Shown one piece after another: positions 2,681 to 48,400 of a DNA stretch of 64,000 nucleotides. Within the stretch, counting starts at the first letter, position 1. The number at the start of each line of letters is the position of its first letter. Under the pieces are notes generated by a model, which was not told the DNA's origin, did no database searches, and saw nothing but the letters and a program-made list of their open reading frames with translations. The stretch is from an uncultured Anaerolineales bacterium. Its GTDB lineage: Bacteria; Planctomycetota; Phycisphaerae; FEN-1346. The position numbers were made by a program, and so were the translations under genes. The stretch spans positions 322 to 64,321 of the forward strand of contig CAYNLG010000005.1 of the NCBI GenBank assembly GCA_964397995.1, read 5' to 3'.

Positions 2681-2830
2681 GGCGCCTTGGCGCGGGGGCT
2701 AGCCCCGCGGCGAAAAGCGCCGGCCGGCCTGCGTCTTGCTCTTTCTTCGCCTCTTTGCGGCCCTGCCGTTTTGCTGTCTTGCCGGTCTGTCGTGTGCTGT
2801 TCTGGCGCCTTGGCCGTTCTGCCCAGTCAC

Positions 2831-7486: not shown

Positions 7487-7529
7487 GCCCGATGGCGCGC
7501 CGCACCGGCGATACCCGGGAGATTCCCCC

Positions 7530-7766
7530 GTGAACGTGCTGTACGTGGACCTGGACGCCACGCGGGCCGACCCCCTCGGCTGCTGCGGCCAGGCCCGGCC
7601 CGCGCCCCCGCACCTCGATGCGATTGCCGCCGAGGCCCCCGAGATGACCACCGGCCGCTCCGTCGAACGATACCTGGCCCGGCTCCGCGCGACGGGGCGC
7701 GACGCCGAGGCCGACGTGGTCGCGGCGCGGCTGGCGGCCGCACAGGGCGGGGAGGCGCCACCGTGA
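7530..7766 (+). pseudogene. 78-aa ORF resembling only the extreme N-terminus of an alkaline-phosphatase-superfamily sulfatase (possible gene remnant)
   Basis: MNVLYVDLDATRADPLGCCGQ resembles the sulfatase N-terminal metal/FGly region. The ORF is far too short for a sulfatase. Its stop overlaps the next gene's start. Confidence 0.25.
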
Positions 7767-8713: not shown

Positions 8714-8727
8714 ACGAAGGAGGTATC

Positions 8728-10128: not shown

Positions 10129-10306
10129 CCCGGGCGCCGGGCCCGCCCCACGGGCCGCTGGTGCGCCGGCGGTTTGGCCGATGCGCGATTCCCCCGAACG
10201 GGTTCAACCGAGCGGCATGACGCTCGGGTTCGAGGGAAAGGTCTGCCCGGGCTCGTGACAGGACGCGAGGCGCGCTCGCCGCCCATGGGACGGGCGCCGG
10301 CCGCGA

Positions 10307-31332: not shown

Positions 31333-32241
31333 ATGCGACGATTCCTTCTGGTGGGCGGCACCGCGCTGGCCGCCGTGTGCGGTTGGGCGGTCGCCGCTTG
31401 GGCCGCCGACGACTTCAATCCGCCGTCCTGGGTCGATACCGACGGCAACGGCAAGCGCGACAACCGGGACGCGCACTTTCTGGAGCCCGGTGAGTTGCTC
31501 GTGATCGGTGTGAACCCGGACTGGGACCCACCGGCGCACTCGACCTCGTACCATTGGCACTGGTGGCCGACGCAGCCGTCCTTTGCTGCTCAAGGCTACT
31601 ACGAAGAGTACGACGCCTTCGTCTCAGACACATGGTACATGCCCGACCACCAGCAGAACCTCTGGAAGCAGGACGGGGCGGGGGGGCCGTGGGTGGAGCA
31701 CTCGCCCGCCCCCATGCCGCGCGCCTGGGCTCACGTGACGCCCCCCGTCGACACCCCGCGTTGGGAGGGGCAGTCCGTGCCGGCCGGGATGCCCCGCGGC
31801 CAGATTCTCAGCGGGGTGCATGGCGGCGTGACCTGGAGCGCGGACGAGCCGAACGGGACATACGGCGGGGTATTCGAGATGCCGCTCTGGATGGGGCTGG
31901 CCCTGCCCGAGACGCGGGTGCGGCTGCAGTACGGCGGCGGGTATGGGTCCTATGGTGACTACACGTACTGGACGACCACCCTCGAGGGGTTCGCCGACGG
32001 CTCAACGGTGGCCAACGTGCCCGTGGTGCGGACCTACCGGAGCCCGGTGGATGGGACGATCTACTACGAGGACTGGACGTTTGCCGGGTGTCCCGACTGG
32101 ATGCGGCTGACCATCGACTTCACGGGGACGGGGCCGGTCGATCAGGTGCTGATCGATACGATCGCGGTGCCAGAGCCGACGACCCTTGCGCTGGTCGGCC
32201 TCGGGCTGGCGAGGCTGGTTCGACGGCGCCGGGCCGCGTGA
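31333..32241 (+). CDS. secreted PEP-CTERM protein
   Basis: Signal peptide MRRFLLVGGTALAAVCGWAVAAWA and a C-terminal IAVPEPTTLALVGLGLARLVRRRRAA. Confidence 0.65.
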   Translation: MRRFLLVGGTALAAVCGWAVAAWAADDFNPPSWVDTDGNGKRDNRDAHFLEPGELLVIGVNPDWDPPAHSTSYHWHWWPTQPSFAAQGYYEEYDAFVSDTWYMPDHQQNLWKQDGAGGPWVEHSPAPMPRAWAHVTPPVDTPRWEGQSVPAGMPRGQILSGVHGGVTWSADEPNGTYGGVFEMPLWMGLALPETRVRLQYGGGYGSYGDYTYWTTTLEGFADGSTVANVPVVRTYRSPVDGTIYYEDWTFAGCPDWMRLTIDFTGTGPVDQVLIDTIAVPEPTTLALVGLGLARLVRRRRAA

Positions 32242-32272
32242 CTGTCGGCCCCGCGCCGTTGCGGTGTGCCGT

Positions 32273-33850
32273 TCACGGCCGCGACGCCCGCAGGTCGTAG
32301 CACGCCACGCCTCCCTTGCGGTGGACGACCAGCCGCCCGTCGGCCAGGGCCGGCGTCGTGCACCGGTAGACGCCGAGGCGGTCCTTCCCGAGCTCACTGA
32401 ACGCCTTCGGGTCGGCGGCCAGCAGCAGCGTCGTCTTGCCGCCCGAGACGGTGGCGACGACCTTCCCGTCGGCCGCCACCGCGGAGGTCACGTCCACCTT
32501 CGGGGCCGCCTCGTTCCAGGCGATCTTGCCGGTCTTGGCCTCGACGCAGACCGCCCGGCCGTCGACGACGGCATAGACGTGTCCGCCCATCATGACGGGG
32601 CTGGCGCCGCGCGTCTTGACGGGCACGCTCCAGAGCTGCGTGGCCGCCTCCGGCGTCAGGCGATAGGCCACAAGGCCGAGGTCGTCGCGGTCGGTCGTGA
32701 CGGCCGCGATGTTGCCCGCGACGGCCGGCGTCGACCACTTGCCGCCGGGCACCCGCCATGCCACCGCGCCGGTCTTCAGGTCGACGCAGCACAGGTCCTT
32801 CTCGGTGTTCGCGAGCACGTACGCCTGGGCTCCCGGCCGCCAGAGGACGGGCGAGCCGTGCCTGCCCTTGACCTCGGGCTGTTCCCAGCGGACCTCGCCG
32901 GTGGCCGCGTCGAGCGCCCGGAGATGGCCAGCCATGACGACGACCAGCCCGTCGGCCGCCAGTGGCGAGGTCGTGATGTCGCCGCCTCCGACCTTCGCCT
33001 CCCATCGTTTCTCGCCCGACGCCAGATCCAGGGCCCAGACCTGGCCGTCGGAGCCGGTGGCGTATGCGATGTCGCCCGCGACGCAGGGCGTGCCGGACGC
33101 GCGGCCGCTCGGGCGCCCGGCGAAGGTTGCCTGCCAGAGGGTGCGGCCGTCGCCCAAGGCGAGACAGAGGACGACGTCCTTCGCCTCCTTCCGTTCGGTG
33201 GGAATCTCCCGCGCGACGGCCTTCTGCACGTCCTCGTCCAAGCCCTTCTCGGCGAACCAGGCGTCGAGAGCGTCTTGCGTCGGGAACGTCCGGTCGGCGA
33301 TCTCGGCCAGCGTCTCCAGCGTGGCCAGGTCGAGGGCCTTCCGGCCGCGCTTGAGGCGGTCCTTGACGTCGCGGCCGTGGGCCTCGCGCTGGGCCTCCGT
33401 CAGGTGCTTCTCGCCCCAGGCATCGATCCAGGCGTCGCGCTCCTTGCCGTCGAGAGCCTCGCGTTCGTCGCTGGTGCGGGCGGCCTCGACCTTGGCGGCC
33501 ACGTCGGGCGGCAGGGGCGTCTTCGGCCGGCCGAGCCTCTCCAGGGCCTTCGCGGTCAGCGTCCGCTCGGGGAACGGCACGGCGTAGTTGTGCGCCATGT
33601 ACATAATCACCCGGTCGCCCGCCACCGTGGGGCTCGCATAGCCGCCCTCCGGGACGTCGGTTCGGTCCCAGGCGAGCGGCGGCCCGTCCTCCGGCCACGC
33701 GGCCAAGAGGGCGGGGCTGTCGGAGGCCGCGCCCGTCCCGGCGGCGTCCCCACGCCAGCACGGCCAGTCGCCGGCGGTTGCGGCTGACGCCAGGCCGGCC
33801 AGAAGGAACAGAACGGTCATTGCGGTCGAGGGCGCGGGCGGGCGAGTCAT
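32273..33850 (-). CDS. PQQ-like beta-propeller repeat protein (paralog of the 26165-27793 gene)
   Basis: Shares the N-terminal DWPCWRGD motif and ALD..TGE..W blade repeats. Has an inserted charged helical segment. Confidence 0.7.
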   Translation of the reverse strand: MTRPPAPSTAMTVLFLLAGLASAATAGDWPCWRGDAAGTGAASDSPALLAAWPEDGPPLAWDRTDVPEGGYASPTVAGDRVIMYMAHNYAVPFPERTLTAKALERLGRPKTPLPPDVAAKVEAARTSDEREALDGKERDAWIDAWGEKHLTEAQREAHGRDVKDRLKRGRKALDLATLETLAEIADRTFPTQDALDAWFAEKGLDEDVQKAVAREIPTERKEAKDVVLCLALGDGRTLWQATFAGRPSGRASGTPCVAGDIAYATGSDGQVWALDLASGEKRWEAKVGGGDITTSPLAADGLVVVMAGHLRALDAATGEVRWEQPEVKGRHGSPVLWRPGAQAYVLANTEKDLCCVDLKTGAVAWRVPGGKWSTPAVAGNIAAVTTDRDDLGLVAYRLTPEAATQLWSVPVKTRGASPVMMGGHVYAVVDGRAVCVEAKTGKIAWNEAAPKVDVTSAVAADGKVVATVSGGKTTLLLAADPKAFSELGKDRLGVYRCTTPALADGRLVVHRKGGVACYDLRASRP

Positions 33851-34077
33851 TGGCGGCTCCGGAGTATCACTGGGGCTCTTGCGTCACGGGCACGGTGTCC
33901 GTGATGCCGTATAGTAGGCGCCTGCCGCCGCACGTCCAGGGGCTTGGGCGGGGCTCCTCCCACGGTGCGGACGCGAGCCCTCCTCCTCGCGGATCGGTTT
34001 TCCGGTAGCCCCCGCGGGTCCGTGTGGCCTACAATAGCCGTCACGGTTCCTGACCTGAACCCACGAGGAGGCGGCGC

Positions 34078-34581
34078 ATGACGCTCAGTGAGAAGCTTTG
34101 CGGCATTTTGAAGATGGGCATCGAGAAGGAGCAGGCGGCCCACGACTTCTACCTGCGGGCGGCCGACAATACCGACAACGTGCTCGGCAAGCAGATGTTC
34201 GAACGGTTGGCGGGCGAGGAGGCCAATCACGAGACGCTGCTCCGGGACTGGTCGACCGAGGGCGAGTGCCCGGTCGAGGCCACCTTCGAGCCGCCCGACA
34301 AGGAACTCCTGGAGCGCGGCTACACGCAGGTGGACAAGACGGTCCAGCCGACGTCCGACGATCTGGAGGCCATCGAACTCGGCCGCAAGATGGAACGCAA
34401 GGCCATCGACTTCTACCAGGCCGCCGCCGCCGACGCCGACGACGAGGAATCGAAGAACCTGTTGATGCGGCTGAAGGCCGAGGAGGATCGGCACCTGGCG
34501 CTGTTGACCGACCTCTACGATTACATGAAGGATCCGAACCTCTGGAGTGTCCGGGACGAGGGCGCCCACTTCGACTCCTAG
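34078..34581 (+). CDS. ferritin-like / rubrerythrin-family protein
   Basis: Paired EExH-type helices (AGEEANHE ... AEEDRHLA), typical of diiron ferritin-like domains. Confidence 0.7.
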   Translation: MTLSEKLCGILKMGIEKEQAAHDFYLRAADNTDNVLGKQMFERLAGEEANHETLLRDWSTEGECPVEATFEPPDKELLERGYTQVDKTVQPTSDDLEAIELGRKMERKAIDFYQAAAADADDEESKNLLMRLKAEEDRHLALLTDLYDYMKDPNLWSVRDEGAHFDS

Positions 34582-34817
34582 GCGGCTCGGGACGCTCCGG
34601 ATCGCCCACGGCCGCGCGGCACGCCAAAGTCATCGAACACTTGCATGGCCATGCCGCCGCGGTATACTGGATGTCCGGCCAAAGGGCGGGAGAGGCGACC
34701 GGCGTTGCCGGTCGGCCGCGTCCCGCCGTCTCGGAAACGGTTGCCGACGCGCGGCGCGCGTGCGCCGGGGTACGGCAGGCGTGGACACGAAAGGCAGAAC
34801 GCCGAAAGGAGGCGGGG

Positions 34818-35048
34818 ATGAAGGGGCTCGCGTACTGGTTGCTGGTGGCGCTCGTGGCAATGCCGGTGATGCTCGTCGGTTGCGCTGAGGATGACACCGG
34901 CGAGGACGTGGAAGAGGCGTTGGAGGAGGCCGGCGAGGCCGCCGAGGAGGGCCTGGAAGAGGCCGGCGAAGGCATGGAAGAGGCTCCCGAAGCGACCGAA
35001 GAGGCTCTTGAGGAGGCGGCCGAGGAGACCGAAGAGGCCGTCGAGTAG
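34818..35048 (+). CDS. small acidic lipoprotein
   Basis: AAGGAGG SD, signal with lipobox LVGC, then an extremely acidic low-complexity tail (EEALEEAGEAAEEGLEEAGEGMEE...). Confidence 0.5.
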   Translation: MKGLAYWLLVALVAMPVMLVGCAEDDTGEDVEEALEEAGEAAEEGLEEAGEGMEEAPEATEEALEEAAEETEEAVE

Positions 35049-35089
35049 ACGCGCCGCCGCGAACCAGGAAAGGTGCATACGGAAGGAAG

Positions 35090-35401
35090 GTGCCCATGAC
35101 ACGTCTGACGATGCTGCTGGCGGCGATGTGGGTTGTGGCCGGGCTTGTCGCGGCCGGGTGCAGCGGCAGCGCCCCGGAGGAAGAGCCGACGGTGGGCGAC
35201 CACCTGGAGCGGGCCGCCGAGGAACTCGGCAAGGCCACCCAGAAGGCCGGCGACAATGTCGAGGAAAGAGCCGCCGAACTTCGGGATGCCGCCGAAGAGG
35301 TCTATGAGGAGGTCTCCGAAGACGCGGCTGACACCGCCGACGAGGCCGCCGACGAGGCCGAAGACGCCGCCGACGAACTCGAAGAGGCCGTTGACGAGTA
35401 A
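35090..35401 (+). CDS. small acidic lipoprotein (paralog of preceding gene)
   Basis: Signal with lipobox LVAAGCSG followed by an acidic tail (DAAEEVYEEVSEDAADTADEAADEAEDAADELEE). Confidence 0.5.
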   Translation: MPMTRLTMLLAAMWVVAGLVAAGCSGSAPEEEPTVGDHLERAAEELGKATQKAGDNVEERAAELRDAAEEVYEEVSEDAADTADEAADEAEDAADELEEAVDE

Positions 35402-35459
35402 CGGCCGCATCACATGACCGATTGACCGGTCGGGCGCCGGCCATGGGGGCGGCGCCCGT

Positions 35460-36494
35460 TTGGCTTTCCGGGGAGAGAGGCCTGTGCCCACCTATGTCGT
35501 GACCGGCGGCGCCGGTTTCATCGGCACCAACTTCGTGCGGCTCGTCCTACGCGAGCGCCCGGACGTCCACGTGGTGAACCTGGACCTGCTCACCTACGCG
35601 GGCAACCTCGCCAACCTGGACGGGTTGCCGGAGGACCGTCACACCTTCCGCCGCGTCGACATCACGCTGCCGGAGGCCGTGGCCGACGCCGTGCCGGAAG
35701 GGGCCGACGCCCTCGTCAACTTCGCCGCCGAAAGCCACGTCGACCGGTCGATCCTCGGCGCGGTCGCGTTCGCCCATACCAACGTGGTCGGCACCCAGGT
35801 GCTCCTCGATGTCGCCCGCCAGAGAGGCGTCAAACGGTATCTCCAGGTCTCGACCGACGAGGTCTACGGCTCGCTCGGGCCGGAGGACACGCCGTTCACC
35901 GAGGCGACGCCGCTCGCCCCGAGCAGCCCCTATGCCGCCAGCAAGGCCGGGGCGGATCACCTGGTCCACGCGGCCGGGCATACGTTCGGCCTGGAGGCCT
36001 GCATCACGCGGTGCGCGAACAACTACGGCCCGTGGCACTTCCCCGAGAAGCTGATTCCCCTGGTCATCACGAACGCCCTGGAGGACGTCGAGATTCCCGT
36101 CTACGGCGACGGTCGCCAAGTCCGCGACTGGATCCACGCCGAGGATCACGCCCGGGCGATCCTGGCGGTTCTGGACGGCGGGAGGCCGGGAGCGGTCTAC
36201 AACGTCGGCGCCCGGTGCGAGCGGTACAACCTCGACGTCGTCAAGATGATTCTGGGCCTGACGGGCAAGCCCGAGTCGCTGATCCGCTACGTCACCGACC
36301 GGCCGGGCCACGACCGGCGGTACGCGATGGACCCGACGCTCCTGGAGACCGAACTCGACTGGAAGCCGCGCATCGACTTCGAGGACGGCCTGGCGGCGAC
36401 GGTCGAGTGGTATCGCCAGCACCGCGCGTGGTGGCAGGCGGTGAAGGACGGGTCGTACCGGCAGTTTTACGAGACATGGTATGGCGGGCGATAG
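35460..36494 (+). CDS. rfbB: dTDP-glucose 4,6-dehydratase
   Basis: TGGAGFIG NAD motif, catalytic YxxxK (YAASKAGADHLV), and a characteristic C-terminus. The true start may be the GTG 24 nt downstream. Confidence 0.85.
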   Translation: MAFRGERPVPTYVVTGGAGFIGTNFVRLVLRERPDVHVVNLDLLTYAGNLANLDGLPEDRHTFRRVDITLPEAVADAVPEGADALVNFAAESHVDRSILGAVAFAHTNVVGTQVLLDVARQRGVKRYLQVSTDEVYGSLGPEDTPFTEATPLAPSSPYAASKAGADHLVHAAGHTFGLEACITRCANNYGPWHFPEKLIPLVITNALEDVEIPVYGDGRQVRDWIHAEDHARAILAVLDGGRPGAVYNVGARCERYNLDVVKMILGLTGKPESLIRYVTDRPGHDRRYAMDPTLLETELDWKPRIDFEDGLAATVEWYRQHRAWWQAVKDGSYRQFYETWYGGR

Positions 36495-36553
36495 GGCCGC
36501 CCCTAACCGAAACCCGGCTTGACATCGGTGCCGCGGCGCCCATCCTGGGGGCC

Positions 36554-37510
36554 ATGCCCCGCGAACGCCCCCGTACCGACCAGGATTTGTCGGCCCCGCC
36601 TGTCCGCCGCTACGCCGGGCCCATCGTCGATTCGCACACCCACACGCGGGACCCGGAGACGGTCCGCCTTCTCATGGAGGCGGCCGACGCCTACGGCATC
36701 GGCATCGTGTGCGGCATCACACACGCCGAGCACATCGCGCCGCTGCAGGCGGCCTTCGGCGACCGGTACCGGCCCATCATTTGGGTCGACTCGACGCACG
36801 TCCGCGACGCGGCGCGCTTTGCCGAGGAGAACGTCCCTCGCATTCGCGAGGCCCGGGCGCGGGGGGCGGTGGCGGCCAAGTTCTGGCAAGCCCCGCGGTT
36901 CTACGCTGAGACGGGCCAGCGGCTCGATGCGCCCGTCTTCACACCCGTCTTCGAGACGCTCAGCGAACTCGGCATGCCCGCCCTCGTGCACATCGCCGAC
37001 CCGGACGCCTGGTTCGAGACGCGGTACCTGGACGCGGCGGTCTACGGGACGAAGGAAGAGCAGTACACGGCCCTGGAGGCGGTGCTTGCCGCGCATCCGG
37101 GCGTGACGCTCGTCGGCGCCCACTTCGGCGGCGACCCGGAGCACCTGGACCACCTGCGGGCGCTGATGGCGGCCTACCCGAACTATTGCGTCGACACGAG
37201 CGCCACCAAGTGGATTGCCCGGGAGATCTCGCGCCGGCCGGAGGCGGCCCGGGCGTTCCTCCGCGACCACGCGGACCGCATCCTTTTCGGCAGCGACATC
37301 GTCACCTTTCCGGACGCGACGTTCGAGGACTACGCCTCGCGGTACTGGGTCCACCGCTGGCTGTGGGAGGGCACCGGCCCGGCCACCTCGCCGATTCCGG
37401 ACCCGCACGCGGCCGATCCGGACCGACCGGGGATTGAGGGCCTGAACCTGCCGGACGACGTCCTGGAGCGGGTTTACCGGGCGAACGTGACCGCCCTCTA
37501 CGGCCTCTGA
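36554..37510 (+). CDS. amidohydrolase-family (TIM-barrel metal-dependent hydrolase) protein
   Basis: Metal-ligand-like HTH near the N-terminus (IVDSHTHT) and a conserved C-terminal aspartate region (FGSDIV). Confidence 0.65.
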   Translation: MPRERPRTDQDLSAPPVRRYAGPIVDSHTHTRDPETVRLLMEAADAYGIGIVCGITHAEHIAPLQAAFGDRYRPIIWVDSTHVRDAARFAEENVPRIREARARGAVAAKFWQAPRFYAETGQRLDAPVFTPVFETLSELGMPALVHIADPDAWFETRYLDAAVYGTKEEQYTALEAVLAAHPGVTLVGAHFGGDPEHLDHLRALMAAYPNYCVDTSATKWIAREISRRPEAARAFLRDHADRILFGSDIVTFPDATFEDYASRYWVHRWLWEGTGPATSPIPDPHAADPDRPGIEGLNLPDDVLERVYRANVTALYGL

Positions 37511-37593
37511 CGCGGGGCGTCGCGGTTTGCCGCCATCGGGGCGCGCCTGCGCTTGACATGCGGCCCGCGGGACGTACACTGGGGCGCTGCCGT

Positions 37594-37669
37594 GGCGGCG
37601 TAGCTCAGGGGCTAGAGCAGGGGATTCATAAGCCCAAGGTCGGTGGTTCGAATCCACCCGCCGCCACCA
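37594..37669 (+). tRNA. tRNA-Met (anticodon CAT; elongator-type G1-C72), CCA encoded
   Basis: Acceptor GGCGGCG/CGCCGCC, D-arm GCTC..GAGC, anticodon loop TTCATAA, T-arm GGTGG-TTCGAAT-CCACC, discriminator A, then CCA. The anticodon stem has only 3 WC pairs (GGG/CCC), so tRNA-Ile2 (lysidine) cannot be excluded. Confidence 0.85.
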
Positions 37670-37925
37670 TCGTCCTTCGCCGGGGCCGCGGCACGGCGGC
37701 GCCGGAGCCCCGCCCACGAACGCGACGCACTTTCATATGCACGCTTCTTGCTACCGCTGTCCGGTTGCTGGGCGCGGGGCGGCGCGCGGGGGCCGGGCGG
37801 CAGGCGGCAGGCCCGGTTGGCGGCGCGCGCCAGAGTGTATAATTGTATCCTGGAGTATCGCGCCGGGCGTACACCGGAGTATACGTTTGTAGCCTATAGT
37901 ATCGCGCCGCCGCCCCGAATTGGCC

Positions 37926-38049
37926 TTTTTTTGGCTTCTTTTGACTTTTTTCATGCCTTTTTTTGGCCTCTGGTGGTTTTTTTTGTGCCCGTTTTGTCTT
38001 TTTTTTGCCTTCGTTTGGCTTTTTTGTGGCGGTTTTTGTCTTTTTTTTC
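37926..38049. promoter_or_regulatory. helically phased T-tracts (about 11 tracts of 4-9 T, mean spacing ~10.6 bp): intrinsically curved AT-rich DNA upstream of the island gene
   Basis: Read directly in the sequence: T-runs centred at ~37929, 37940, 37948, 37961, 37980, 37993, 38003, 38016, 38023, 38036, 38045. Local GC is far below the ~70% background. Confidence 0.5.
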
Positions 38050-38224
38050 TCCGGGTGCCGTCGAGACGGCCGCGCGACCCCTTCAGGCGGCCGGCGCCGT
38101 GAAACGGGGCAAGATGGGCAGTATGGAGAAAATGCGGAGGCCGGAATGCGGAATGCAGGCAACGGCTCACGACCGGGCGCGCGGCGTGCGTGGGAACGAG
38201 GTGACTGGGTGACTGGGCAACTAG

Positions 38225-40336
38225 GTGACTGGGAGGTGGCCGACATCGGTGGAGACTGTATATATAGCCTTGGGGAATAGGAACAGAGTACCGGAGAGGG
38301 CGTTTGAGGACGGAGGCGTTGGCAGTTTCTATTGGGGGCAAGGCGAGAATCTCACTGGCACGGAGTCTGTCGGGGATGTACACTTCTGGGGAATGAGGGC
38401 CTTGGCTGAGGAACCGGCAATGTGCGAGCTTCTTGAGCTTGCCCGGAAGCAGTTTGGGGAGAGTCTGAGTGAGTCCGAAGCCGGTGTCATTAAGGCCGCC
38501 TCCGTGGGGGACGCTTGTGGGTATGGCGGGTGGGCTGATGTGCAAGCACCCTTATGGGAGGCAGAGTCGAAAACGGGCCAAGTTGTCCGGTCGAAAGTCG
38601 TCCGCTGGCTGTGCTCAGATTCTGCGGCGAAGTCGCTTGTTCGCCTGCAGGGACTGATAATCCGCGGGTTTGTGTTCGAGGAATTGCTTGACCTAAGCAT
38701 GGTGCGGGCGCCGTTCCCTCTCGTCCTACAGAATTGTGTCTTGAGACGTGGTATTGTCCTGACCTTCGCAGAACTCGCACTTCTCGATCTATCGCAGAGT
38801 CGAACGGGGCCGGTCCTGGCTAACGGAGTAGAGATTGCGCGAGGACTCTTTCTGAATGGCTTGGAATGTCATGGTTGGCATATTGACGGCCTGGGTGGCA
38901 AATGTTGCATATCATTGCAAAAGGCCATTGTGCGAAGTGAGATGAGTGTGATAGAGGCGCGTTTGGTCGCAGGCGATGGCGTCGCTTTGTGTTTGCGGGG
39001 GGCAACTGTGGAAGGCGGAGTGTCAATGCCGGGGCTTTGGGCAGAGGGAGAGTTGGATTTTCAGGAGATCGCCATCGCCGGGACGCTGGACATGACGGAT
39101 GTGCATGTGGCCAGTCGCGGCCGAGTGGCCGTCACGTTGGACCGGGCGCATGTGGGGAAGGCCCTTGCCATGTGCGGAGACTTCAGGGCCCTTGGACAGG
39201 TTAGGCTCGCCGGCGCTATGGTGAACGATGTATTGCACTGCTCGGGCTGCTGGATCGTTCACGATGGCGACTTCGCCGTGATGGCCGATGCCGTGCGCGT
39301 GGGCAGCCAGGCCGCATTTGATGGCGCGCGCATAGGAGGTGGCGTGCGAATGGCTTTCGCGAGACTTGAGGGGCACTTTGGCTGTACTGCGGCGTTGCTG
39401 GTTTCCGGCTCAAAACCTGCTCTGGATATACAAGTGGCGAGAATTGGCGGCAGTGTCTTCTTGGACGAGGGCTTCTGTGCGCATGGCGAGGTCAGCGTGC
39501 TGGGCGCCATGATCGGCGGGGACCTTGACTGTACGGGCGGGCGCTTTCTGAATGCGGGGGCAAAGGCATTGTCTGCGGATGGCGCGCAGATAGGCAGCAG
39601 GCTGTTGATGCATTCGGGGTTCGAAGTCCGCGGCGAATTGAGGCTGTTTTACGTCAAGGTCCCCGTGCTTAAGGACGAAGTGCAAAGCTGGCCCACGAGA
39701 GGGAACTTGTGCCTGGAAGGCTTCAGTTACGACTTTATGAGGCCGGCGTCCGCAGAGTCGGGCCTAGGCAATCGTCTTCAGTGGATCGAGAGGCAGTACC
39801 CACAAGAGCGAAGCCGATGGCGCGGGAGCTTCTGTCCGCATCCGTACACCGAGTTGGCGCGGGCTTACCGACGAATGGGAATGCCAAGGGAGGCAAGGAA
39901 GGCTCTCATTGGAAAGCACAAGCATGAAAGGCGCCACGGTACCATGAGCCGGCGCCGCAAGGCGGGGGACTGGTTTCTTGGATTCGTTGTAGGGCACGGC
40001 TATGCCATGTGGCGAGTTCTGATCTTTGCCGGCATTCTTTTTGCAGTCACCTGGGCGGCGGTTGCTTGGGGGAATGCTCAAGGCCTAATGGTTCGAAGTG
40101 GAGACTCGGTGGGTCCCCTGCCATTGCTGTACCCCTTCGTCTATGCCTTGGATGCCTTGGTTCCGTTTGTGGACTTGCACCAGGAGAGCAATTGGGTGCC
40201 CGACGCCGCGGAGGGGGCGTGGCACACGGGGTTTCTGCTTCAGGTTCTGATATACGTCAACATTATTTCGGGGTGGGTTCTTTTGACAGCCGCCATAGCC
40301 GGGTTGGCGAACGTCGTGAAGCACGAGTCGGAGTAG
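38225..40336 (+). CDS. orphan 703-aa protein with a repetitive beta-helix/pentapeptide-like middle region and a C-terminal multi-TM domain
   Basis: Periodic G/A/V/L repeats (ARIGGGVRMAFARLEG, ARIGGSVFLDEGF, GAMIGGDLDCTGG, ADGAQIGSRLL) and C-terminal hydrophobic helices (VLIFAGILFAVTWAAVAW; VLIYVNIISGWVLLTAAIAGLA). GTG start embedded in a triple GTGACTGGG repeat. Lower GC than its neighbours. Confidence 0.6.
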   Translation: MTGRWPTSVETVYIALGNRNRVPERAFEDGGVGSFYWGQGENLTGTESVGDVHFWGMRALAEEPAMCELLELARKQFGESLSESEAGVIKAASVGDACGYGGWADVQAPLWEAESKTGQVVRSKVVRWLCSDSAAKSLVRLQGLIIRGFVFEELLDLSMVRAPFPLVLQNCVLRRGIVLTFAELALLDLSQSRTGPVLANGVEIARGLFLNGLECHGWHIDGLGGKCCISLQKAIVRSEMSVIEARLVAGDGVALCLRGATVEGGVSMPGLWAEGELDFQEIAIAGTLDMTDVHVASRGRVAVTLDRAHVGKALAMCGDFRALGQVRLAGAMVNDVLHCSGCWIVHDGDFAVMADAVRVGSQAAFDGARIGGGVRMAFARLEGHFGCTAALLVSGSKPALDIQVARIGGSVFLDEGFCAHGEVSVLGAMIGGDLDCTGGRFLNAGAKALSADGAQIGSRLLMHSGFEVRGELRLFYVKVPVLKDEVQSWPTRGNLCLEGFSYDFMRPASAESGLGNRLQWIERQYPQERSRWRGSFCPHPYTELARAYRRMGMPREARKALIGKHKHERRHGTMSRRRKAGDWFLGFVVGHGYAMWRVLIFAGILFAVTWAAVAWGNAQGLMVRSGDSVGPLPLLYPFVYALDALVPFVDLHQESNWVPDAAEGAWHTGFLLQVLIYVNIISGWVLLTAAIAGLANVVKHESE

Positions 40337-40630
40337 CCCTCGCTGGCAGGCGGGCCCGTGGAGTGCGGCTCGGGGGCGCCTGGCAAGGTGGCTATAACAT
40401 CAGCATCCATGGCGGTGCCGCTCCCATCGTAGTCCACAGGAAACGCCAAATGGCGCAACACCGAGAACGGCAGCGACTCCGTCGCCACGACAAGGCGCTG
40501 ATCCGTCAGCACACTCCATGTGACGGCCACTGCCGCGCGGGACCGGGGCGGGGACGGACCGCGTGACCGCGAGCTTCCGCTCGGGGCCCGAAACGGCCCG
40601 GCCGCCCCGGCGATGCGAAGACGGCACGGC

Positions 40631-41848
40631 CTACCGGCGGCTGAGGAGGCGTTTGGCGTAGTCGGCGGCCAGGTCAAGTACGGCCTTCGGCGCGCCCGCC
40701 CCCGCGACCGGTTCGGTCGCCACGGGCTTGAGGAAGACCAACCCCTTACCCGCCTCGCCGGTGGTGCGGGCGTCGCGGAGATTCGGGACCACGGCCGACG
40801 GGTCGGCGGCCAGGCGAGCGGCGGCGGCCTTGCCGACGTAGACGTTGGCGAAGCGGTAGCTGTCCTTCTGGTCGCACCAGATGTCGAAACCGGCATTGCC
40901 GCAGACGTTGCTGTCGCGCATCTCTGGGATGCCGCGGTCGGACATGGTGTTGCCGGCAAACCCGCCACCCTGGTTCGCGGTGATCTCGCACAGGCTGATA
41001 TGCGGAAAACTCTTGTGGTCGCACTGGTAGCCAACACCCCGGCATGCTTTGATGGTAACCCGGGCCACGGGCGTGCTTTCGTCGAAACCGTTGATCCCAT
41101 GTCCCAAGCTGTAGAGCACGGCTGTGTCGGAGATCTGCGTGTCGGTTGAATGGATCCAAACGCCCAGTCGGTTGCCCACGAGCGCGCAATGCGAGACATT
41201 CGCCCCGCCTTTGTGGATCTCCAGCCCCTTCTCCGCCAGGGCGATGACGCACCACGCGAGCGTGCTGCCGGGGGCCTGGATGCGGATGCCTGCCCAGCCG
41301 CGCCGCTTGTTGGCGGGGACGAAGGCGATCGGGTTGGTCTCGGTGCCCTCGGCGAGGAGGCGGCCCGAGACGACGAGGCCCGCCTCCGGGGCCGCCTCCA
41401 GGCGCGTGCCCGGGCGCACCGTCAGCGTGACGCCGGTCGGGACGGCCAGCTGGCCCACGACGTGGACCACGGCGCCCGGGCCGCCGACCGTGCGGTCGGC
41501 CGTCAGGGCGGCGGGCAACGTGGACTCGGTGCGACGGGGATCGGCCTCGCCGACACCGGGGCGGCGGTCGGCCGGGGGCTTGTCGGGCGCCGCCAGAGCC
41601 GCCTTGGCGGCCGCGTGGTCCGGGTCGATGCGGAGGACGGCCTGCCAGCAGGCCCTGGCGTCAGCGGCGCGGCCGGCGCGGGCGGCGGCCTCGGCGAAGC
41701 GGGTGAGTTTGGCGACGGCCTCGGCATCGGCGCGGGCGACGGCGGCGGCCCGCTCCTGCTCGATGGCCTGGACCCGGTCGTCGGTGCCTGCGGCCGCAGC
41801 TGGGGCGGCCACCAGGGCGAGAAGCACGAGCGGCGCGGCGCGAAACAT
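40631..41848 (-). CDS. secreted right-handed beta-helix repeat protein (pectin-lyase-fold, PbH1-like)
   Basis: Signal MFRAAPLVLLALVAAPAAAAG, then repeated beta-helix turns (NVSHCALVGNRLGVWIH, NVCGNAGFDIW, CEITANQGGGFAGN). Confidence 0.65.
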   Translation of the reverse strand: MFRAAPLVLLALVAAPAAAAGTDDRVQAIEQERAAAVARADAEAVAKLTRFAEAAARAGRAADARACWQAVLRIDPDHAAAKAALAAPDKPPADRRPGVGEADPRRTESTLPAALTADRTVGGPGAVVHVVGQLAVPTGVTLTVRPGTRLEAAPEAGLVVSGRLLAEGTETNPIAFVPANKRRGWAGIRIQAPGSTLAWCVIALAEKGLEIHKGGANVSHCALVGNRLGVWIHSTDTQISDTAVLYSLGHGINGFDESTPVARVTIKACRGVGYQCDHKSFPHISLCEITANQGGGFAGNTMSDRGIPEMRDSNVCGNAGFDIWCDQKDSYRFANVYVGKAAAARLAADPSAVVPNLRDARTTGEAGKGLVFLKPVATEPVAGAGAPKAVLDLAADYAKRLLSRR

Positions 41849-42429
41849 GACAGTCCCCCTTTCGATGATGATCCGACGCGTGAGAGAGGCAGACGCCGCG
41901 ATCTTTCGGGCCATTGTGGCGCGAAAGGGCCGGGGACGCAAGGGGGCGTTTGTTGGTCTCGAAGAAGAGGCGAACGCGAGGGAAGAAGAAGGCGGCGGGG
42001 GCTGGGGAAGAAGACACGCAAAAGGGCCAAGACTGGGTGCCCGGGGGAAGAAGAATACGGCCAGGGCAAAACGTCAGACGGCAGCCAAAGCGGCGTCGAG
42101 GCCGCCGCAGTCCATAGAGCGGCGACGGCAAACGACACGCGTGGGGGCGAGCCCCGCGGCGAAAAGGGCAAAGCAGAACTCACGGGCAGGATGCCCGTGC
42201 TACGGGGAAACGGCGATGGCAAGACGGCGAACGGCAGCCAAAGCGGTGCCGGTGGCACCGCAGTCCAAGGTCCGGCTGCGCCGGACATGGAAGACGGCAG
42301 CGGCCACGGCGCGCGGCAATCGCGGGGAAACCCGGCCGGGGTCGGCTGGTTCAATCCCTCGGAACGCGACGGGCTTGGCTGCGCCCTCGGGCCGGGCGGG
42401 CGGCCCGGGCTGAGACTGAGGGACTCCGC

Positions 42430-45270: not shown

Positions 45271-45484
45271 GGCCGCGCCGCGGGCCACCGCGGCCGAGAC
45301 GCGCCCCGCCGGGCCGGGCGAGGTCCGGCCGCATTTCTCTGTGACACCGACCGCGCCCGCGGTACAACCATCTTGGGCGGAACCCGGGGGCCGCCGGCCG
45401 CGTCTATCCTCGTATCCGGCTTCGGGTCGGCGGGCCCCCGTCGGGGGCGCGCCCCCGTTCGAACCCTGGTCCGAGGGCACACGA

Positions 45485-48400
45485 ATGACGCGTTACGGAA
45501 CCTGGCTGTGGCTGGCGGCGGTGATCGGGCTCTGCGGGACCGGGACGTGGGCAGCCGCCGCGGCGGCGCCTCCCGAGGCCGCGCCCGCGGCCCCGGCGGC
45601 CGACGACGACGCCCCGCTCAAAGAGCAGACGATCTACATCCCGTACGAGAAGTTGCGGGAGGTGTTCGAGGCGCAGGGGCGCGGCGTCTTTCTGCCGTAC
45701 GAGCGGTTCCAGGAGCTGTGGAAGGCCGCACGCGAGGCCCGGACGCGTCCGCCCGAGGCCGCGCCGCCCATCGAGACGCTCATCGCCGAGGCCGCCTACG
45801 TCGCGACCGTGGCCAAGGACGTGGTCACGGTCGACGGCACGCTCCGCATCGAGGTCCTGAAGGAGGGGTGGAACGAGATACCGCTCGGCCTTCCCCACGC
45901 CGCCATCACCCGGGCCGCTCTCGGCGACGAGCCGGCGCGGATCGTGTCGCGCGGCGAGGCGGGGTACGCGTTGCTGGTGGAGAACGCGGCCGACGCGCCG
46001 CAGGTGCTGGAGCTGGCGCTGACCTTCGCCAAGGCCTACACGAAGGCGCCCGGCCAGAACAGCGTGACGTTCCAGGCGCCGCGGTCGCCGGTCAGCCGCT
46101 GGGACGTCCGCATCCCCGAGTCGGGCGTCAAGGTCAACATCCAGCCCCTCCTGGCCGCCACCGAGGTGCCGGACGAGGCGGGCGCCGACCAGACGCGGGT
46201 CCTGGCGTTCGTCGGGGCCGCCCCCCAGGTCCGGATCGACTGGACCCCCAAGGCCGAGGGCGCCAAGGGTCTGGAGGCCCTGGCCACCGTCCAGTGCCGC
46301 CAGCAGGTCACCATCGACGAGGGCGTGACACGCACCCGGGCCGAACTCGCCTACGAAATCAGCCGCGCCGAACTCCCGCGCCTCGTCGTCGACGTCCCCC
46401 TGGACCAGAAGGTCGTCAACGTCTTCGACCCGAACGTGCGCGAGTGGTCGGTCGAGCAGGTGGCGGCCGACGAAGTCCGGCGGATCGAGGTCCAGCTCTT
46501 CGAGCCCGCCAAGGGGAGCCAGGACCTGGTGGTCGAGCTGGAGAAGTTCGCCAGCGACACGTTGGTGGCCGTGCCCGTCGTCCGGGCCCGCAACGTCGGC
46601 CGCCAGCAGGGCTGGGTCGTCGTGGGCGTCGCCGACGGCCTCCGGGCCGAGGCCGTCCGCCGCGAGGGCCTCCTTCAGGTCGACGCCACCGAGCTGCCCG
46701 CGCCCCTGCGCGGCAAGCGGTGGGACTTCTCGTACCGGTACGCCACGGTGCCTTTCGACCTGGAGCTCCGGGTCGAGACCATCCAGCCGCGCCTGCTGGC
46801 CGAGACGCTCGTCGAGGCCCACCTCGCGCCGGAGGACCTGACGCTTGACGTGCTCGTCGTCTACGATGTCCAGCGGGCCGGCGTCTTCAACCTGGCGGTG
46901 CGCATCCCCGAGGGGTTCGAGGTCCGGAGCGTCGCGGGCGTCCAGGCGGGCGGGGCCCAGCCCGTGGTGGTTGACGCCCACCACGTCGAGGCCCAGCCCG
47001 AGCGGCGCCTCGTCGTCAACCTCGGCCGCAAGGCCCTCGGCCAGGTGGCCCTGGCGGTCCAGCTCCACCGGCCGCTGCGCGAGCCCGACCTGCTGGCCCC
47101 CACCGGCAAGGCCGCGACCGTCCCCGTCCCCGTGCCGCGCGTCGACCCGGAGACGGTCGAGCGCGAGAGCGGCCGCCTGGTCGTCTACGCCCCGGAGAGC
47201 CTGCGCGTGAACCCGGAGACGGCCGACGGTCTGCGGGCGGTTTCCCACGGCGAGGCCGTCCAAGGCATGCGGAGCACGCGGCGTGGCGGGGAGCGGCCGG
47301 CGCTGGCCTACGCCTACAGCCGCGACGCCGTCGCGCTGGCGCTGGCGGCCGAGCGGCGCAAGCCCCAGGTGACCGTCGGCCAGTTGCTGACGGCCCGCAT
47401 CGAGTCGGGCGTCGTCCAGTTCGAGGCCCGGCTCTTCTACGACATCCTTTACAGCGGCGTCAAAAGCGTCCGCCTGGACATCCCGGCCGAGGTCGCGCCG
47501 GAGCTCCGTGTCACAAGCGGCGACATCCGGCACACCGTGGATGACGACGCCGCCGACCTCGCCGACGGCATGGTGGCCTGGCGCCTGACGGGCGAGACCG
47601 AACTGATGGGCCGCCGCGAGATCCGCCTGAAGTGGGAGCGAACCATCGAGAAGCTCGACCTCGGCAACCCCACCGAGATCGCCATCCCGCGCCTCGTGCC
47701 CCGCGAGGTCGACCGGGCCTGGGGCCAGATCGTCCTCGCGAAGGCCGAGACGATCGACGTCATGCCGGCCGAGATGGAGGAATCGCTCCGGCCGATCGAC
47801 CCGCAGCACGACCTGATGCACGGTGTCCGCATCCCGGACGCGGCCCTGGCCTTCGAGTTCCACGACGCCTGGCACATGACCGTCCAGGCCACCCGCTACG
47901 AGCCGAAGGACATCAAGGCGACCGCCGTCGAGGCCGCCGTCGTCCGCTTCGTCGTGACGCGCGGCGACGTGACGAGCGTCCAGGCGCTATACCGGATGCG
48001 AAGCTTCCGGCAGCGGCTGGTCATCCGTCTGCCCGGCGAGGTCGACTTCGACATCCAGCCGGTCCGCCTGAACGGGCGGCCCGTCTCGCTGGAGCAGGGC
48101 GAGGGCGGCGACTACTTCGTGCCCCTGGTCGGCCAGGAACAGAACACGCCCTTCCTGCTCGAACTCCGCTACACCGTGCGGGGGGGCGGGCTGACCCTGA
48201 GCGGTCCCGAGTTCCCCGAAGAGCCCGCCATCCAGAAGGTCTACGCCGCCGTCTACATCCCCACCGAGTGGGTCTACCTGGGAAAGCGCGGCCAGTGGAC
48301 GCCGGAGCTGGTCTGGCGCCTGCGCGGCTTCGGGGCGGCGCCGGTCGGCATGTACGACAGCGGCTGGCTGCTGCCGTGGGTGACGCGCGGCGTGGACGTG

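What the first reader, a model, noticed from the sequence alone, without database searches (positions are those of the whole stretch)
37594..40340. Low-GC islet inserted 3' of tRNA-Met carrying one orphan repeat/membrane protein
Immediately downstream of tRNA-Met(CAT), GC content drops sharply for ~2.7 kb. The segment contains a single 703-aa gene that is lower in GC than its neighbours. It has a beta-helix/pentapeptide-like repeat core and a C-terminal multi-TM domain, and its GTG start sits in a GTGACTGGG x3 micro-repeat. A tRNA 3' end is the canonical integration site for genomic islands. However, no integrase, direct repeat of the tRNA 3' end, or other mobility gene is visible. This is therefore either a decayed islet or a horizontally acquired gene.
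Basis: partly seen in the sequence, partly recalled or inferred. Interest (0 to 1): 0.6.

Follow-up and report, generated by a model that had tools for sequence, protein, structure and literature searches.

The report
Foreign membrane-protein gene beside tRNA-Met
A 2.5-kb stretch of clearly foreign, low-GC DNA next to a tRNA-Met gene in a very GC-rich planctomycete genome carries one gene of a large, widespread but unstudied family of membrane-anchored beta-helix proteins; this is an ordinary case of horizontal gene acquisition, and nothing shows it to be a classical tRNA-integrated island.

Summary
tRNA-Met(CAT) lies at 37594-37669. From about 37830 to 40340 GC falls to 56-60% in a 72% GC window. 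The single gene has GC3 0.665 against 0.926±0.031 in 30 neighbouring genes (z -8.5).

Three details are wrong:
- The dip starts about 160 nt after the tRNA, behind a 79% GC spacer.
- The real start is probably ATG 38420 or 38393, not the GTG at 38225 in the micro-repeat.
- The protein is not an orphan. It has 8,549 cluster representatives at E≤1e-3, some named "membrane-associated oxidoreductase" in RefSeq, a name nothing here supports.

No integrase, transposase or repeat of the tRNA 3' end exists in the window. Five relatives keep rubrerythrin–dehydratase–amidohydrolase–tRNA-Met. Four of them then continue into miaA–DnaJ–rnpA. None has this gene.

The AlphaFold2 model (pLDDT 91) shows an N-terminal helical cap, a cytoplasmic beta-helix with 22/26-27-residue coils, a basic helical linker, and a TM–re-entrant loop–TM module. 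Family members sit on plasmids, beside transposases, and once on a true tRNA-Phe/integrase island.

Verdict: a recent single-gene horizontal acquisition at a variable tRNA-adjacent spot. Function is unknown. A membrane-effector role is only inferred. A phased T-tract array upstream is unexplained.

The parts
37553..37580 (+). Sigma-70-like promoter of the tRNA-Met gene (TTGACA-16-TACACT)
   Evidence: The hexamers are conserved in L003, L004 and L005.
37594..37669 (+). tRNA-Met(CAT) with encoded CCA. G1:C72 marks it as not an initiator type.
   Evidence: ARAGORN and Rfam tRNA at 62 bits. It sits in the same position after the amidohydrolase gene in L003, L004, L005, L021 and L022.
37670..37829 (.). 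GC-rich (79%) spacer between the tRNA and the low-GC block. It is taken as host DNA on composition alone.
   Evidence: It is not alignable to relatives. Logan contig L020 runs through it to 37856.
37822..37909 (+). Two tandem 44-nt direct repeats (75% identical) at the left edge of the low-GC block. The first contains TATAAT.
   Evidence: family D2.
37920..38050 (+). Phased T-tract array: 57% T, tracts spaced about 10-11 or 21 nt. Function unknown.
   Evidence: It holds all 7 A/T runs of ≥6 nt in the 64-kb window. It is absent upstream of 9 homologues.
38196..38233 (+). GGTGACTGGG micro-repeat (3 copies). It probably lies in the 5' leader or promoter region, not at the start codon.
38420..40336 (+). 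Coding sequence of the beta-helix/2-TM family protein, 638 aa from ATG 38420. Alternative starts are ATG 38393 (647 aa), GTG 38249 (695 aa, as called in the databases) and GTG 38225 (703 aa, the maximal ORF).
38393..38635 (+). N-terminal helical cap domain (model residues 1-81)
   Evidence: AlphaFold2. It aligns to homologue N-termini.
38654..39739 (+). Cytoplasmic beta-helix (model residues 88-449), with coils alternating 22 and 26-27 residues. Net charge is -8.
39740..40006 (+). Basic (+13) cytoplasmic helical linker. It contains the family motifs R-x-x-W-L/I-x-R-Q and P-Y-x-x-L-A.
40007..40333 (+). Membrane module: TM helix, re-entrant loop with a short helix carrying Y-x-L-D-x-x-x-P-x-V-D-L-x-Q-x-x-x-W, then a long TM helix. 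Both ends are predicted to be cytoplasmic.
   Evidence: Weak channel-like fold hits.
40337..40630 (.). 3' intergenic spacer where GC returns to 71%. This is the right edge of the foreign block.
   Evidence: Logan contigs L001 and L002 span it.
40631..41941 (-). Convergent neighbour gene with a right-handed beta-helix domain and host-like composition (GC3 0.88). It is not part of the islet.
   Evidence: It has no homologue but itself.

Best explanation
A block of about 2.5 kb (roughly 37830-40340) is recently acquired foreign DNA. It lies in a variable, rearrangement-prone intergenic spot downstream of tRNA-Met in a 72% GC Planctomycetota (Phycisphaerae-like) genome.

The block brings one gene and its own AT-rich upstream region: two 44-nt repeats, a phased T-tract array and a GGTGACTGGG micro-repeat. 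There is no sign that a tRNA-targeting integrase put it there. The route of insertion is unknown; illegitimate recombination or a lost vehicle are possibilities.

The gene encodes a member of a very large, horizontally mobile, experimentally uncharacterised protein family. The protein lacks a signal peptide. Its N-terminal cap, long beta-helix and basic helical linker are predicted to be cytoplasmic. It is anchored by a conserved C-terminal TM–re-entrant loop–TM module.

Inferred, not shown: the beta-helix is a variable-length binding or sensing scaffold, and the conserved membrane module is the working part. That part might be an oligomeric pore or permeability effector of the kind found in accessory or conflict genes. 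My confidence is about 0.85 for the acquisition, about 0.6 for 'not an integrase-type tRNA island', and about 0.2-0.25 for the membrane-effector mechanism.
For: Composition:
- GC is 0.589 against 0.724±0.019 (z -7.3).
- GC3 is 0.665 against 0.926±0.031 (z -8.5), and the CAI-like index is 0.284 against 0.729±0.071 (z -6.3).
- In other hosts the family gene mostly matches local GC, so low GC is not a family trait: L009, L011, L012, L016, L018 and L023.

Absence in relatives:
- L003, L004, L005, L021 and L022 keep dehydratase–amidohydrolase–tRNA-Met. The four longer loci also keep rubrerythrin upstream.
- L003, L005, L021 and L022 then continue into miaA–DnaJ–MerR–rnpA. L004 ends about 2.4 kb after the tRNA.
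- None has a family member or a GC dip at this site.
- The tRNA-to-miaA spacer varies from 546 to 1992 nt, so the spot is variable.

Not an assembly artefact:
- Independent Logan contigs cover 34109-37856 and 38109-42117 at 100% identity.

No mobility signature:
-.

Family size and mobility:
- There are 8,549 representatives.
- 31 plasmid records carry a member.
- Members lie next to transposases (L009, L014, L025), Prim-Pol (L011), a relaxase and SIR2 (L016), and a tRNA-Phe plus integrase (L013).

Architecture:
- The full-length AlphaFold2 model has pLDDT 91.2 and pTM 0.84. The C-terminal module alone has pLDDT 85.7.
- Charge distribution fits an N-in, C-in topology.
- The cap/linker and membrane module are the best conserved parts, and family length ranges from 429 to 1278 aa through repeat number.
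- The closest named relative is from a Phycisphaerae MAG, 35% identical overall and clearly higher over the C-terminal 220 residues.
Against: - No empty-site relative exists. The nearest relatives share only 59-63% identity in the flanking amidohydrolase, and their synteny with the window is broken on both sides of a 3.6-kb block. The synteny break at the tRNA is therefore not specific to the islet.
- No donor was found. The best hits share 35-46% identity.
- The 252 nt from 37857 to 38108 that join the two independent contigs are present only in the MAG assembly.
- That the 160-nt GC-rich spacer belongs to the host rests on composition only.
- On function, no fold or sequence match is significant. 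The best PDB Foldseek hit for the C-terminal module has E = 0.56, and hhalign against KcsA gives a probability of 0.6%.
- PADLOC, PHROGs, Pfam and NCBIfam find nothing beyond one chance-level PHROG match (E 0.14).
- No partner gene is conserved, and several family members sit among housekeeping or transport genes (L012, L018, L023).
Confidence: 0.6

Rival explanations
1. It is the decayed remnant of a classical tRNA-integrated genomic island. A tyrosine integrase once inserted an element into the 3' end of tRNA-Met. The integrase, the att repeats and the other cargo were later lost, leaving one gene.
For: - The block lies on the 3' side of a tRNA.
- Its composition is foreign.
- A family member rides on exactly such an element elsewhere: L013 has tRNA-Phe, then an integrase with Arm-DNA-bind_3/Phage_integrase domains, then a 1071-aa member.
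- The spacer after this tRNA varies in length among relatives.
Against: - There is no integrase or fragment of one in the flanking ORFs.
- The best match to the tRNA's last 45 nt anywhere in 64 kb is 24/45. No match of ≥12 nt to the tRNA gene lies within 20 kb of the block, on either side.
- The low-GC DNA begins about 160 nt past the tRNA, behind 79% GC sequence.
- The gene shows little amelioration (GC3 0.665). That argues for a recent arrival, which fits poorly with complete decay of everything else.
Confidence: 0.2
2. It is a native gene. Its low GC and odd codon usage would reflect functional constraints, such as repeat structure, expression level or membrane insertion, and not horizontal transfer.
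For: - The family occurs in Phycisphaerae MAGs.
- No mobility genes are nearby.
Against: - In the Phycisphaerae relative the gene has GC 0.679 and GC3 0.83 in a 0.68-0.70 locus. Elsewhere the gene also tracks host GC.
- The 560-nt non-coding upstream region is also low in GC, at 55.6%.
- The gene is absent from this locus in five relatives.
Confidence: 0.05
3. It is an assembly or binning chimera. The low-GC block would belong to another organism and was joined to this contig across the low-complexity T-tract region.
For: - The independent Logan assemblies covering the left flank stop at or before 37856 (L020 at 37856; L019 ends at 37623). Two others start at 38109.
- The joining 252 nt are seen only in the MAG contig.
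Against: - The left contig L020 already runs 26 nt into the low-GC block.
- The right contig L001 runs from inside the block, through the gene, for 1.8 kb into 71-80% GC host-type DNA at 100% identity.
- Both composition boundaries therefore lie inside single independent contigs from the same sample.
Confidence: 0.05
4. On function: the protein is a pentapeptide-repeat-type DNA mimic, like Qnr, MfpA or AlbG, that binds topoisomerases or other DNA-binding proteins and is tethered to the membrane. Alternatively it is a true membrane-associated oxidoreductase, as named in RefSeq.
For: - Relatives carry faint PF13576 Pentapeptide_3 hits.
- The best PDB fold hits for the beta-helix are the pentapeptide repeat proteins HetL, QnrB1 and AlbG, with E from 2.4e-3 to 1.3e-2.
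- The RefSeq names appear on Streptomyces homologues.
Against: - No Pfam pentapeptide model hits the query at E≤1.
- The coils are 22 and 26-27 residues, not 20.
- The net charge of the beta-helix is only -8 over 362 residues.
- TM-scores to pentapeptide repeat proteins are 0.10-0.25.
- For the oxidoreductase name, there is no cofactor-binding domain or motif, no NCBIfam model behind the name, and no paper in the searchable library.
Confidence: 0.1

Closest known systems
tRNA-linked genomic islands (integrase-mediated, e.g. P4-like or ICE-type islands)
   Same: Compositionally foreign DNA lies on the 3' side of a tRNA gene. It is absent from relatives at that site. The cargo family is seen on a real island of this kind (L013).
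   Different: There is no integrase and no direct repeat of the tRNA 3' end. The foreign DNA starts about 160 nt past the tRNA. It carries only one gene in 2.5 kb.
Pentapeptide repeat proteins (Pfam clan of PF00805/PF13599/PF13576; Qnr, MfpA, AlbG, HetL)
   Same: The core is a beta-solenoid built from short repeats. Relatives show faint PF13576 hits. These proteins are the top, though non-significant, PDB fold neighbours.
   Different: The coil length is 22 and 26-27 residues, arranged as a 48-49-residue double unit, instead of 20. No Pfam hit is found for this protein. It has an N-terminal helical cap and a C-terminal membrane module that those proteins lack. It is only mildly acidic.
RefSeq proteins named 'membrane-associated oxidoreductase' or 'oxidoreductase' in Streptomyces and other Actinomycetota
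   Same: They are homologous over about 90% of their length, at 23-25% identity with E from 1e-17 to 6e-19 by tblastn. They share the same architecture and C-terminal motifs.
   Different: They are distant relatives. The window protein belongs to a subgroup shared with Phycisphaerae MAGs. The name implies an activity for which no evidence was found.
Two-TM P-loop cation channels (KcsA, Kir, and the pore domains of Kv, CNG and TRP channels)
   Same: The predicted topology is the same: N-in, TM helix, short re-entrant helix and loop, long TM helix, C-in. Pore domains of these channels dominate the top of the Foldseek list for the C-terminal module.
   Different: All hits are non-significant, with E ≥ 0.56 and TM-scores of 0.2-0.33. 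The re-entrant loop has no selectivity-filter signature. hhalign against KcsA gives a probability of 0.6%. The oligomeric state is unknown.
Pepco/Trypco1–protease defence modules (Kaur et al. 2020, PMC7159879; bioRxiv 10.1101/2025.11.14.688446)
   Same: On Acaryochloris plasmid pMB04 a family member starts 4 nt inside the end of a Trypco1/Pepco gene. That locus also holds caspase–STAND and caspase genes.
   Different: This was seen in only one of about 13 contexts examined. There is no Trypco1, protease or STAND gene near the window gene. The association may be mere neighbourhood.

Membership tests
tRNA-integrated genomic island | A tyrosine or serine integrase gene at the tRNA-proximal end | tested here: not met
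   The block has one long ORF and no other credible gene. The short flanking ORFs give no Pfam hit. Nothing is similar to phage or plasmid DNA.
tRNA-integrated genomic island | A direct repeat of the tRNA 3' end (attL/attR) bounding the island | tested here: not met
   The 25-mer search with ≤3 mismatches finds only the tRNA itself. A k-mer and ungapped scan of the whole window finds no more than chance-level matches. The repeat finder on 37400-41000 finds none.
tRNA-integrated genomic island | Foreign DNA begins inside or at the 3' end of the tRNA gene | tested here: not met
   37670-37829 is 79% GC, and the low-GC DNA starts near 37830. This rests on composition only, because the spacer is not alignable to relatives.
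tRNA-integrated genomic island | Atypical composition and absence from related genomes at the same tRNA | tested here: met
   for composition. for five relatives that lack the gene.
Pentapeptide repeat proteins (PF00805, PF13599, PF13576) | Sequence match to a Pfam pentapeptide model above threshold | tested here: not met
   The query matches 0 Pfam families at E≤1. Relatives have only faint PF13576 hits.
Pentapeptide repeat proteins (PF00805, PF13599, PF13576) | A quadrilateral beta-helix with 20 residues (4 x 5) per coil | tested here: not met
   Coils in the AlphaFold2 model alternate 22 and 26-27 residues. Foldseek against HetL, Qnr and AlbG gives E ≥ 2.4e-3 and TM-scores ≤ 0.25.
'Membrane-associated oxidoreductase'-named family (beta-helix + C-terminal TM module) | Full-length homology and the shared motifs: DDxxxWP cap, RxxWLxRQ, QPYxQLA, GYGYRP-like, YxLDxxxPxVxLxQxxxW, GW...RR | tested here: met
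'Membrane-associated oxidoreductase'-named family (beta-helix + C-terminal TM module) | Oxidoreductase activity or a cofactor-binding domain | tested here: not met
   No Pfam or NCBIfam domain is found. The model contains only the helical cap, the beta-helix, helices and TM segments. Enzymatic activity itself cannot be tested here.
Two-TM P-loop cation channels | TM1 – pore helix – selectivity filter – TM2 fold with a significant structural match | tested here: inconclusive
Two-TM P-loop cation channels | A filter signature (e.g. TVGYG) in the re-entrant loop, and tetrameric assembly | tested here: not met
   The loop motif is YxLDxxxPxVDLxQxxxW. The family's GYGY motif lies on the cytoplasmic side before TM1. 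hhalign against KcsA gives a probability of 0.6%. Oligomeric state cannot be tested here.
Known anti-phage defence systems (PADLOC-DB v2) | Match to a defence-protein HMM | tested here: not met
   0 families at E≤1.

The most novel reading that the evidence does not exclude
The family could be an unrecognised class of stand-alone, horizontally mobile membrane effectors. A cytoplasmic beta-solenoid of variable length would sense or bind a target and gate a P-loop-channel-like TM–re-entrant loop–TM pore, giving an abortive-infection or exclusion-type function. This would fit its presence on plasmids, in IS-rich regions, on a tRNA/integrase island and next to a Pepco–caspase locus. In this window it would have arrived with its own curved-DNA (phased T-tract) control region.
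Probability: 0.12. Interest if true: 0.65.

Novelty: new member of a known kind. Interest (0 to 1): 0.3.

Why it matters
As a genomic event this is routine: one horizontally acquired accessory gene at a variable tRNA-adjacent spot.

Its wider value is as a pointer to a very large protein family (thousands of 50%-identity clusters across Actinomycetota, Proteobacteria, Cyanobacteria, Acidobacteria and Planctomycetota). That family:
- has no Pfam or NCBIfam model;
- carries a misleading RefSeq name;
- has a confidently predicted and unusual architecture, a cytoplasmic beta-solenoid joined to a conserved two-TM re-entrant module;
- has no known function.

If the membrane module proved to be a pore or an effector, the family would add a new type of mobile membrane-acting gene. 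The phased T-tract array in a 72% GC genome is a small separate curiosity. It might act as a promoter-upstream curved element or as a target for nucleoid proteins on foreign DNA.

Tried and rejected
**Searches on the protein**
- Pfam, NCBIfam and PADLOC gave no hit. PHROGs gave one chance-level hit at E 0.14.
- PDB sequence searches with the protein and with family profiles gave nothing meaningful. The only faint signal was a PPR/TPR-like match to the cytoplasmic helical hairpin at E 0.006.
- The NCBIfam origin of the name 'membrane-associated oxidoreductase' was sought. No model hits four family members.
- The literature hit for that phrase concerns DoxX and is unrelated.

**Structure comparisons**
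- Foldseek against the PDB and BFVD returned only generic beta-helix hits and non-significant channel hits.
- hhalign of the C-terminal profile against KcsA aligned the family's 'TVGYGYRP + TM1' to 'TVGYGD + TM2' at a probability of 0.6%. I rejected this as coincidence.

**Searches for a source, relatives or an att site**
- The att-site search was negative. Inverted repeats flanking the block (I2 and I4) are 13-16 nt at 81-92% in GC-rich DNA, and I judged them to be chance.
- The islet has no DNA similarity to plasmids or phages. The protein has no match in phage records.
- An empty-site search through the downstream neighbour failed. That protein has no homologue except itself.
- Exact-match scans of JGI metagenome contigs for the host flank and for the T-tract array found nothing.

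**Other features**
- Rfam found only the tRNA in 37000-41000.
- The minus-strand lysine-rich ORF across the T-tracts (37626-38246) has no Pfam hit and runs antisense through the tRNA. I rejected it as a gene.
- In one alignment about 40 nt after the tRNA looked conserved with L003. This was not reproduced with more sequences and I dropped it.

Full report
**1. The observation**

ARAGORN and Rfam place a tRNA-Met(CAT) at 37594-37669 on the + strand. A TTGACA-16-TACACT promoter lies at 37553-37580.

The window as a whole is 71.8% GC. Between about 37750 and 40500, 500-nt windows read 0.56-0.62, while the surroundings read 0.67-0.80. Finer measurements give:
- 37670-37829: 79% GC
- 37830-38392: 55.6%
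- the ORF 38225-40336: 58.9% (z = -7.3 against all 2-kb windows outside the region)
- 40337-40630: 71%

So the dip is real and large. It starts about 160 nt after the tRNA, not at its 3' end.

The only long ORF is 38225-40336. Measured from ATG 38420, its GC3 is 0.665 against 0.926±0.031 in 30 other genes of the window (z -8.5). A CAI-like index trained on those genes gives 0.284 against 0.729±0.071 (z -6.3).

GTGACTGGG does occur three times, at 38201, 38209 and 38225. The whole window has 4 matches against 0.64 expected.

**2. Start codon**

The GTG at 38225 directly follows an in-frame TAG and simply opens the maximal ORF. Homologue N-termini align to the residues that follow ATG 38420 (MCELLELARKQF...), as seen. 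That ATG has GAGGA 7 nt upstream. ATG 38393 is also possible. Database gene callers chose GTG 38249. The micro-repeat is therefore most likely in the leader or promoter region, about 190 nt upstream of the coding sequence.

**3. No island machinery**

Nothing in the window repeats the tRNA 3' end:
- A 25-mer search allowing 3 mismatches finds only the tRNA.
- k-mer and ungapped scans give chance-level matches only.
- The repeat finder on 37400-41000 finds no bounding repeat.

The short ORFs in the flanks have no Pfam hit. The block has no DNA similarity to plasmid or phage records.

**4. Is it an assembly artefact?**

The identical protein and its flanks occur in independent Logan assemblies:
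- L020 (SRR7048219) equals window 34109-37856.
- L019 (SRR7048224) equals 31437-37623.
- L001 (SRR7048219) equals 38109-42117.
- L002 (SRR7048228) equals 38109-40547.

All four are 100% identical to the window. Both composition boundaries thus lie inside single independent contigs. Only 37857-38108, which holds the repeats and T-tracts, rests on the MAG contig alone.

**5. Relatives and synteny**

The flanking amidohydrolase (36554-37510) finds relatives at 59-63% identity. Those that carry a name are labelled Phycisphaerae or Planctomycetes MAGs; two of the genome hits are labelled Anaerolineales.

L003, L005, L021 and L022 share this gene order: B12-binding, pseudouridine synthase, rubrerythrin, dehydratase, amidohydrolase, tRNA-Met(CAT), a 0.5-2 kb variable spacer, then miaA, DnaJ, MerR and rnpA. 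L021 and L022 also carry an Fe-ADH gene and an ECF sigma factor gene between miaA and DnaJ. L004 is a short contig that keeps only the dehydratase, the amidohydrolase and the tRNA.

The window keeps only rubrerythrin through tRNA-Met (34078-37669). It contains none of the other genes in its 64 kb. No relative has a family member or a GC dip after the tRNA.

At this divergence, however, synteny is broken on both sides of the conserved block. The break at the tRNA is thus not specific evidence for insertion.

The downstream neighbour (40631-41941, a right-handed beta-helix protein) has no homologue but itself among 5.8 billion proteins. No empty-site comparison is therefore possible.

**6. The protein is not an orphan**

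A full HMMER scan of 1.84 billion cluster representatives finds 8,549 at E≤1e-3 and 1,837 at E≤1e-30. The word-indexed search finds hits in Acidobacteria, Geodermatophilus, Burkholderiaceae, Rhodosalinus and Streptomyces. The Streptomyces hit is named 'membrane-associated oxidoreductase'. tblastn finds the family on 31 plasmids: 19 from Streptomyces, 5 from Rhodococcus, 2 from Rhizobium, Acaryochloris and others. It finds none in phage records.

The closest named relative is from a Phycisphaerae MAG (HUU09139.1). It is 35% identical overall and clearly more similar over the C-terminal 220 residues. There the gene has GC 0.679 in a 0.68-0.70 locus. Elsewhere the gene also mostly tracks host GC, apart from L014 (0.49 against 0.61), which sits among transposase fragments. 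Low GC is therefore a property of this copy and not of the family.

**7. Architecture**

The AlphaFold2 model built on 27 family sequences has mean pLDDT 91.2 and pTM 0.84. It shows:
- a helical cap, residues 1-81;
- a beta-helix, residues 88-449, with coils alternating 22 and 26-27 residues as a 48-49-residue double unit;
- a cap motif DDxxxWP;
- a basic helical linker, residues 450-538, with net charge +13;
- a TM helix (539-562), a loop with a short helix carrying the conserved YxLDxxxPxVDLxQxxxW motif, and a long TM helix (610-646).

There is no signal peptide, and positive charge lies before TM1 and after TM2. The bulk of the protein should therefore be cytoplasmic.

Family length runs from 429 to 1278 aa through repeat number. 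The cap/linker and membrane parts are the best conserved.

No Pfam, NCBIfam, PADLOC or PDB sequence match exists, and the single PHROG match is chance-level at E 0.14. By fold, the beta-helix is nearest to pentapeptide repeat proteins, but not significantly (HetL at E 2.4e-3). The C-terminal module, modelled alone (pLDDT 85.7), draws a list dominated by pore domains of tetrameric cation channels. All of these are non-significant, with E ≥ 0.56 and TM-scores of 0.2-0.33. hhalign against KcsA gives a probability of 0.6%. The channel resemblance is a lead and not a result.

**8. Genomic contexts of the family**

No partner gene is conserved. The contexts seen were:
- a DDE transposase, YqaJ and IstB (L009);
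- Prim-Pol (L011);
- TonB/ExbD and a transglutaminase (L012);
- tRNA-Phe, a tyrosine integrase and a family member (L013);
- transposase fragments and toxin-antitoxin genes (L014);
- a relaxase, YaaC and SIR2 (L016);
- a RES toxin (L017);
- an Mnh antiporter and an SLC13 permease (L018);
- an IS1182 transposase (L025);
- a ferredoxin, a Crp-type regulator and a Xer-like recombinase (L023).

On Acaryochloris pMB04 the member overlaps the end of a Trypco1/Pepco gene, beside caspase–STAND and caspase genes. Pepco is described as a protease-activated death effector (bioRxiv 10.1101/2025.11.14.688446; Kaur et al. 2020, PMC7159879). This association was seen only once.

**9. The upstream region**

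The low-GC block opens with two 44-nt direct repeats at 37822-37909. A 130-nt array of T-tracts spaced about 10-11 or 21 nt follows at 37920-38050. It is 57% T and holds all seven A/T runs of ≥6 nt in the window. The array is not a family feature and has no exact match in JGI metagenome contigs. Its spacing suggests intrinsically curved DNA. This was not tested.

**10. Verdict**

The finding is a real and strong compositional islet. It carries one recently acquired gene of a large, mobile, uncharacterised family. The tRNA-island interpretation lacks every mechanistic hallmark but cannot be formally excluded.

The function is unknown. The best-supported inference is a cytoplasmic beta-solenoid scaffold anchored by a conserved two-TM re-entrant module that may act on the membrane. 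My confidence in that mechanism is about 0.2-0.25.

As a genomic event it is ordinary. The family itself and the T-tract array are modestly interesting.

Noticed in passing
window 37920-38050: A phased T-tract array, 57% T with tracts about 10-11 or 21 nt apart, holds all seven A/T homopolymer runs of ≥6 nt in the 64-kb, 72% GC window. It may be curved DNA or an iteron-like element. It is absent upstream of homologues and has no exact match in JGI metagenome contigs.
   Followed up: partly
window 37857-38108: The Logan assemblies that reach the block from the left stop at 37856, and two restart at exactly 38109. The 252 nt between them are present only in the MAG contig. The cause could be a coverage drop or microheterogeneity at the repeats and T-tracts.
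   Followed up: partly
L015 (Acaryochloris plasmid pMB04, NZ_CP071721.1) 2427-12056: A family member, split into two CDS, starts 4 nt inside the end of a Trypco1/Pepco gene. That gene is divergent from a caspase–nSTAND1–pentapeptide protein. A second Pepco plus caspase pair, an ISKra4 transposase and a tyrosine recombinase lie nearby, so this is a conflict-system neighbourhood.
   Followed up: partly
L013 3234-8308: This is a textbook tRNA island: tRNA-Phe, then a tyrosine integrase (Arm-DNA-bind_3/Phage_integrase), then a 1071-aa member of the same family as cargo.
   Followed up: partly
L014 8001-9998: Another family member is 12 GC points below its flanks (0.49 against 0.61). It sits among transposase fragments and toxin-antitoxin genes, so it is a second compositionally foreign copy.
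   Followed up: no
window 34630-35401: Two small, extremely acidic low-complexity ORFs (runs of E, A and D) lie between the rubrerythrin and dehydratase genes. Small genes are called at the same position in the Logan contigs and in relatives.
   Followed up: no
window 45341-56777: Two very large ORFs (1217 aa and 2630 aa) with host-like GC3. The 1217-aa protein has no Pfam hit. The 2630-aa protein was not examined.
   Followed up: no
L021 19478-20410: A reverse transcriptase (RVT_1) gene lies next to rnpA/yidD in the closest relative's conserved block. It is absent from L022.
   Followed up: no
L021 11184-13176 and L003 11140-12606: The spacer between tRNA-Met and miaA is 1.5-2 kb in these two relatives, against about 0.55-0.63 kb in L005 and L022. 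The extra ORFs have no Pfam hit. The spot downstream of this tRNA is variable across the clade.
   Followed up: partly
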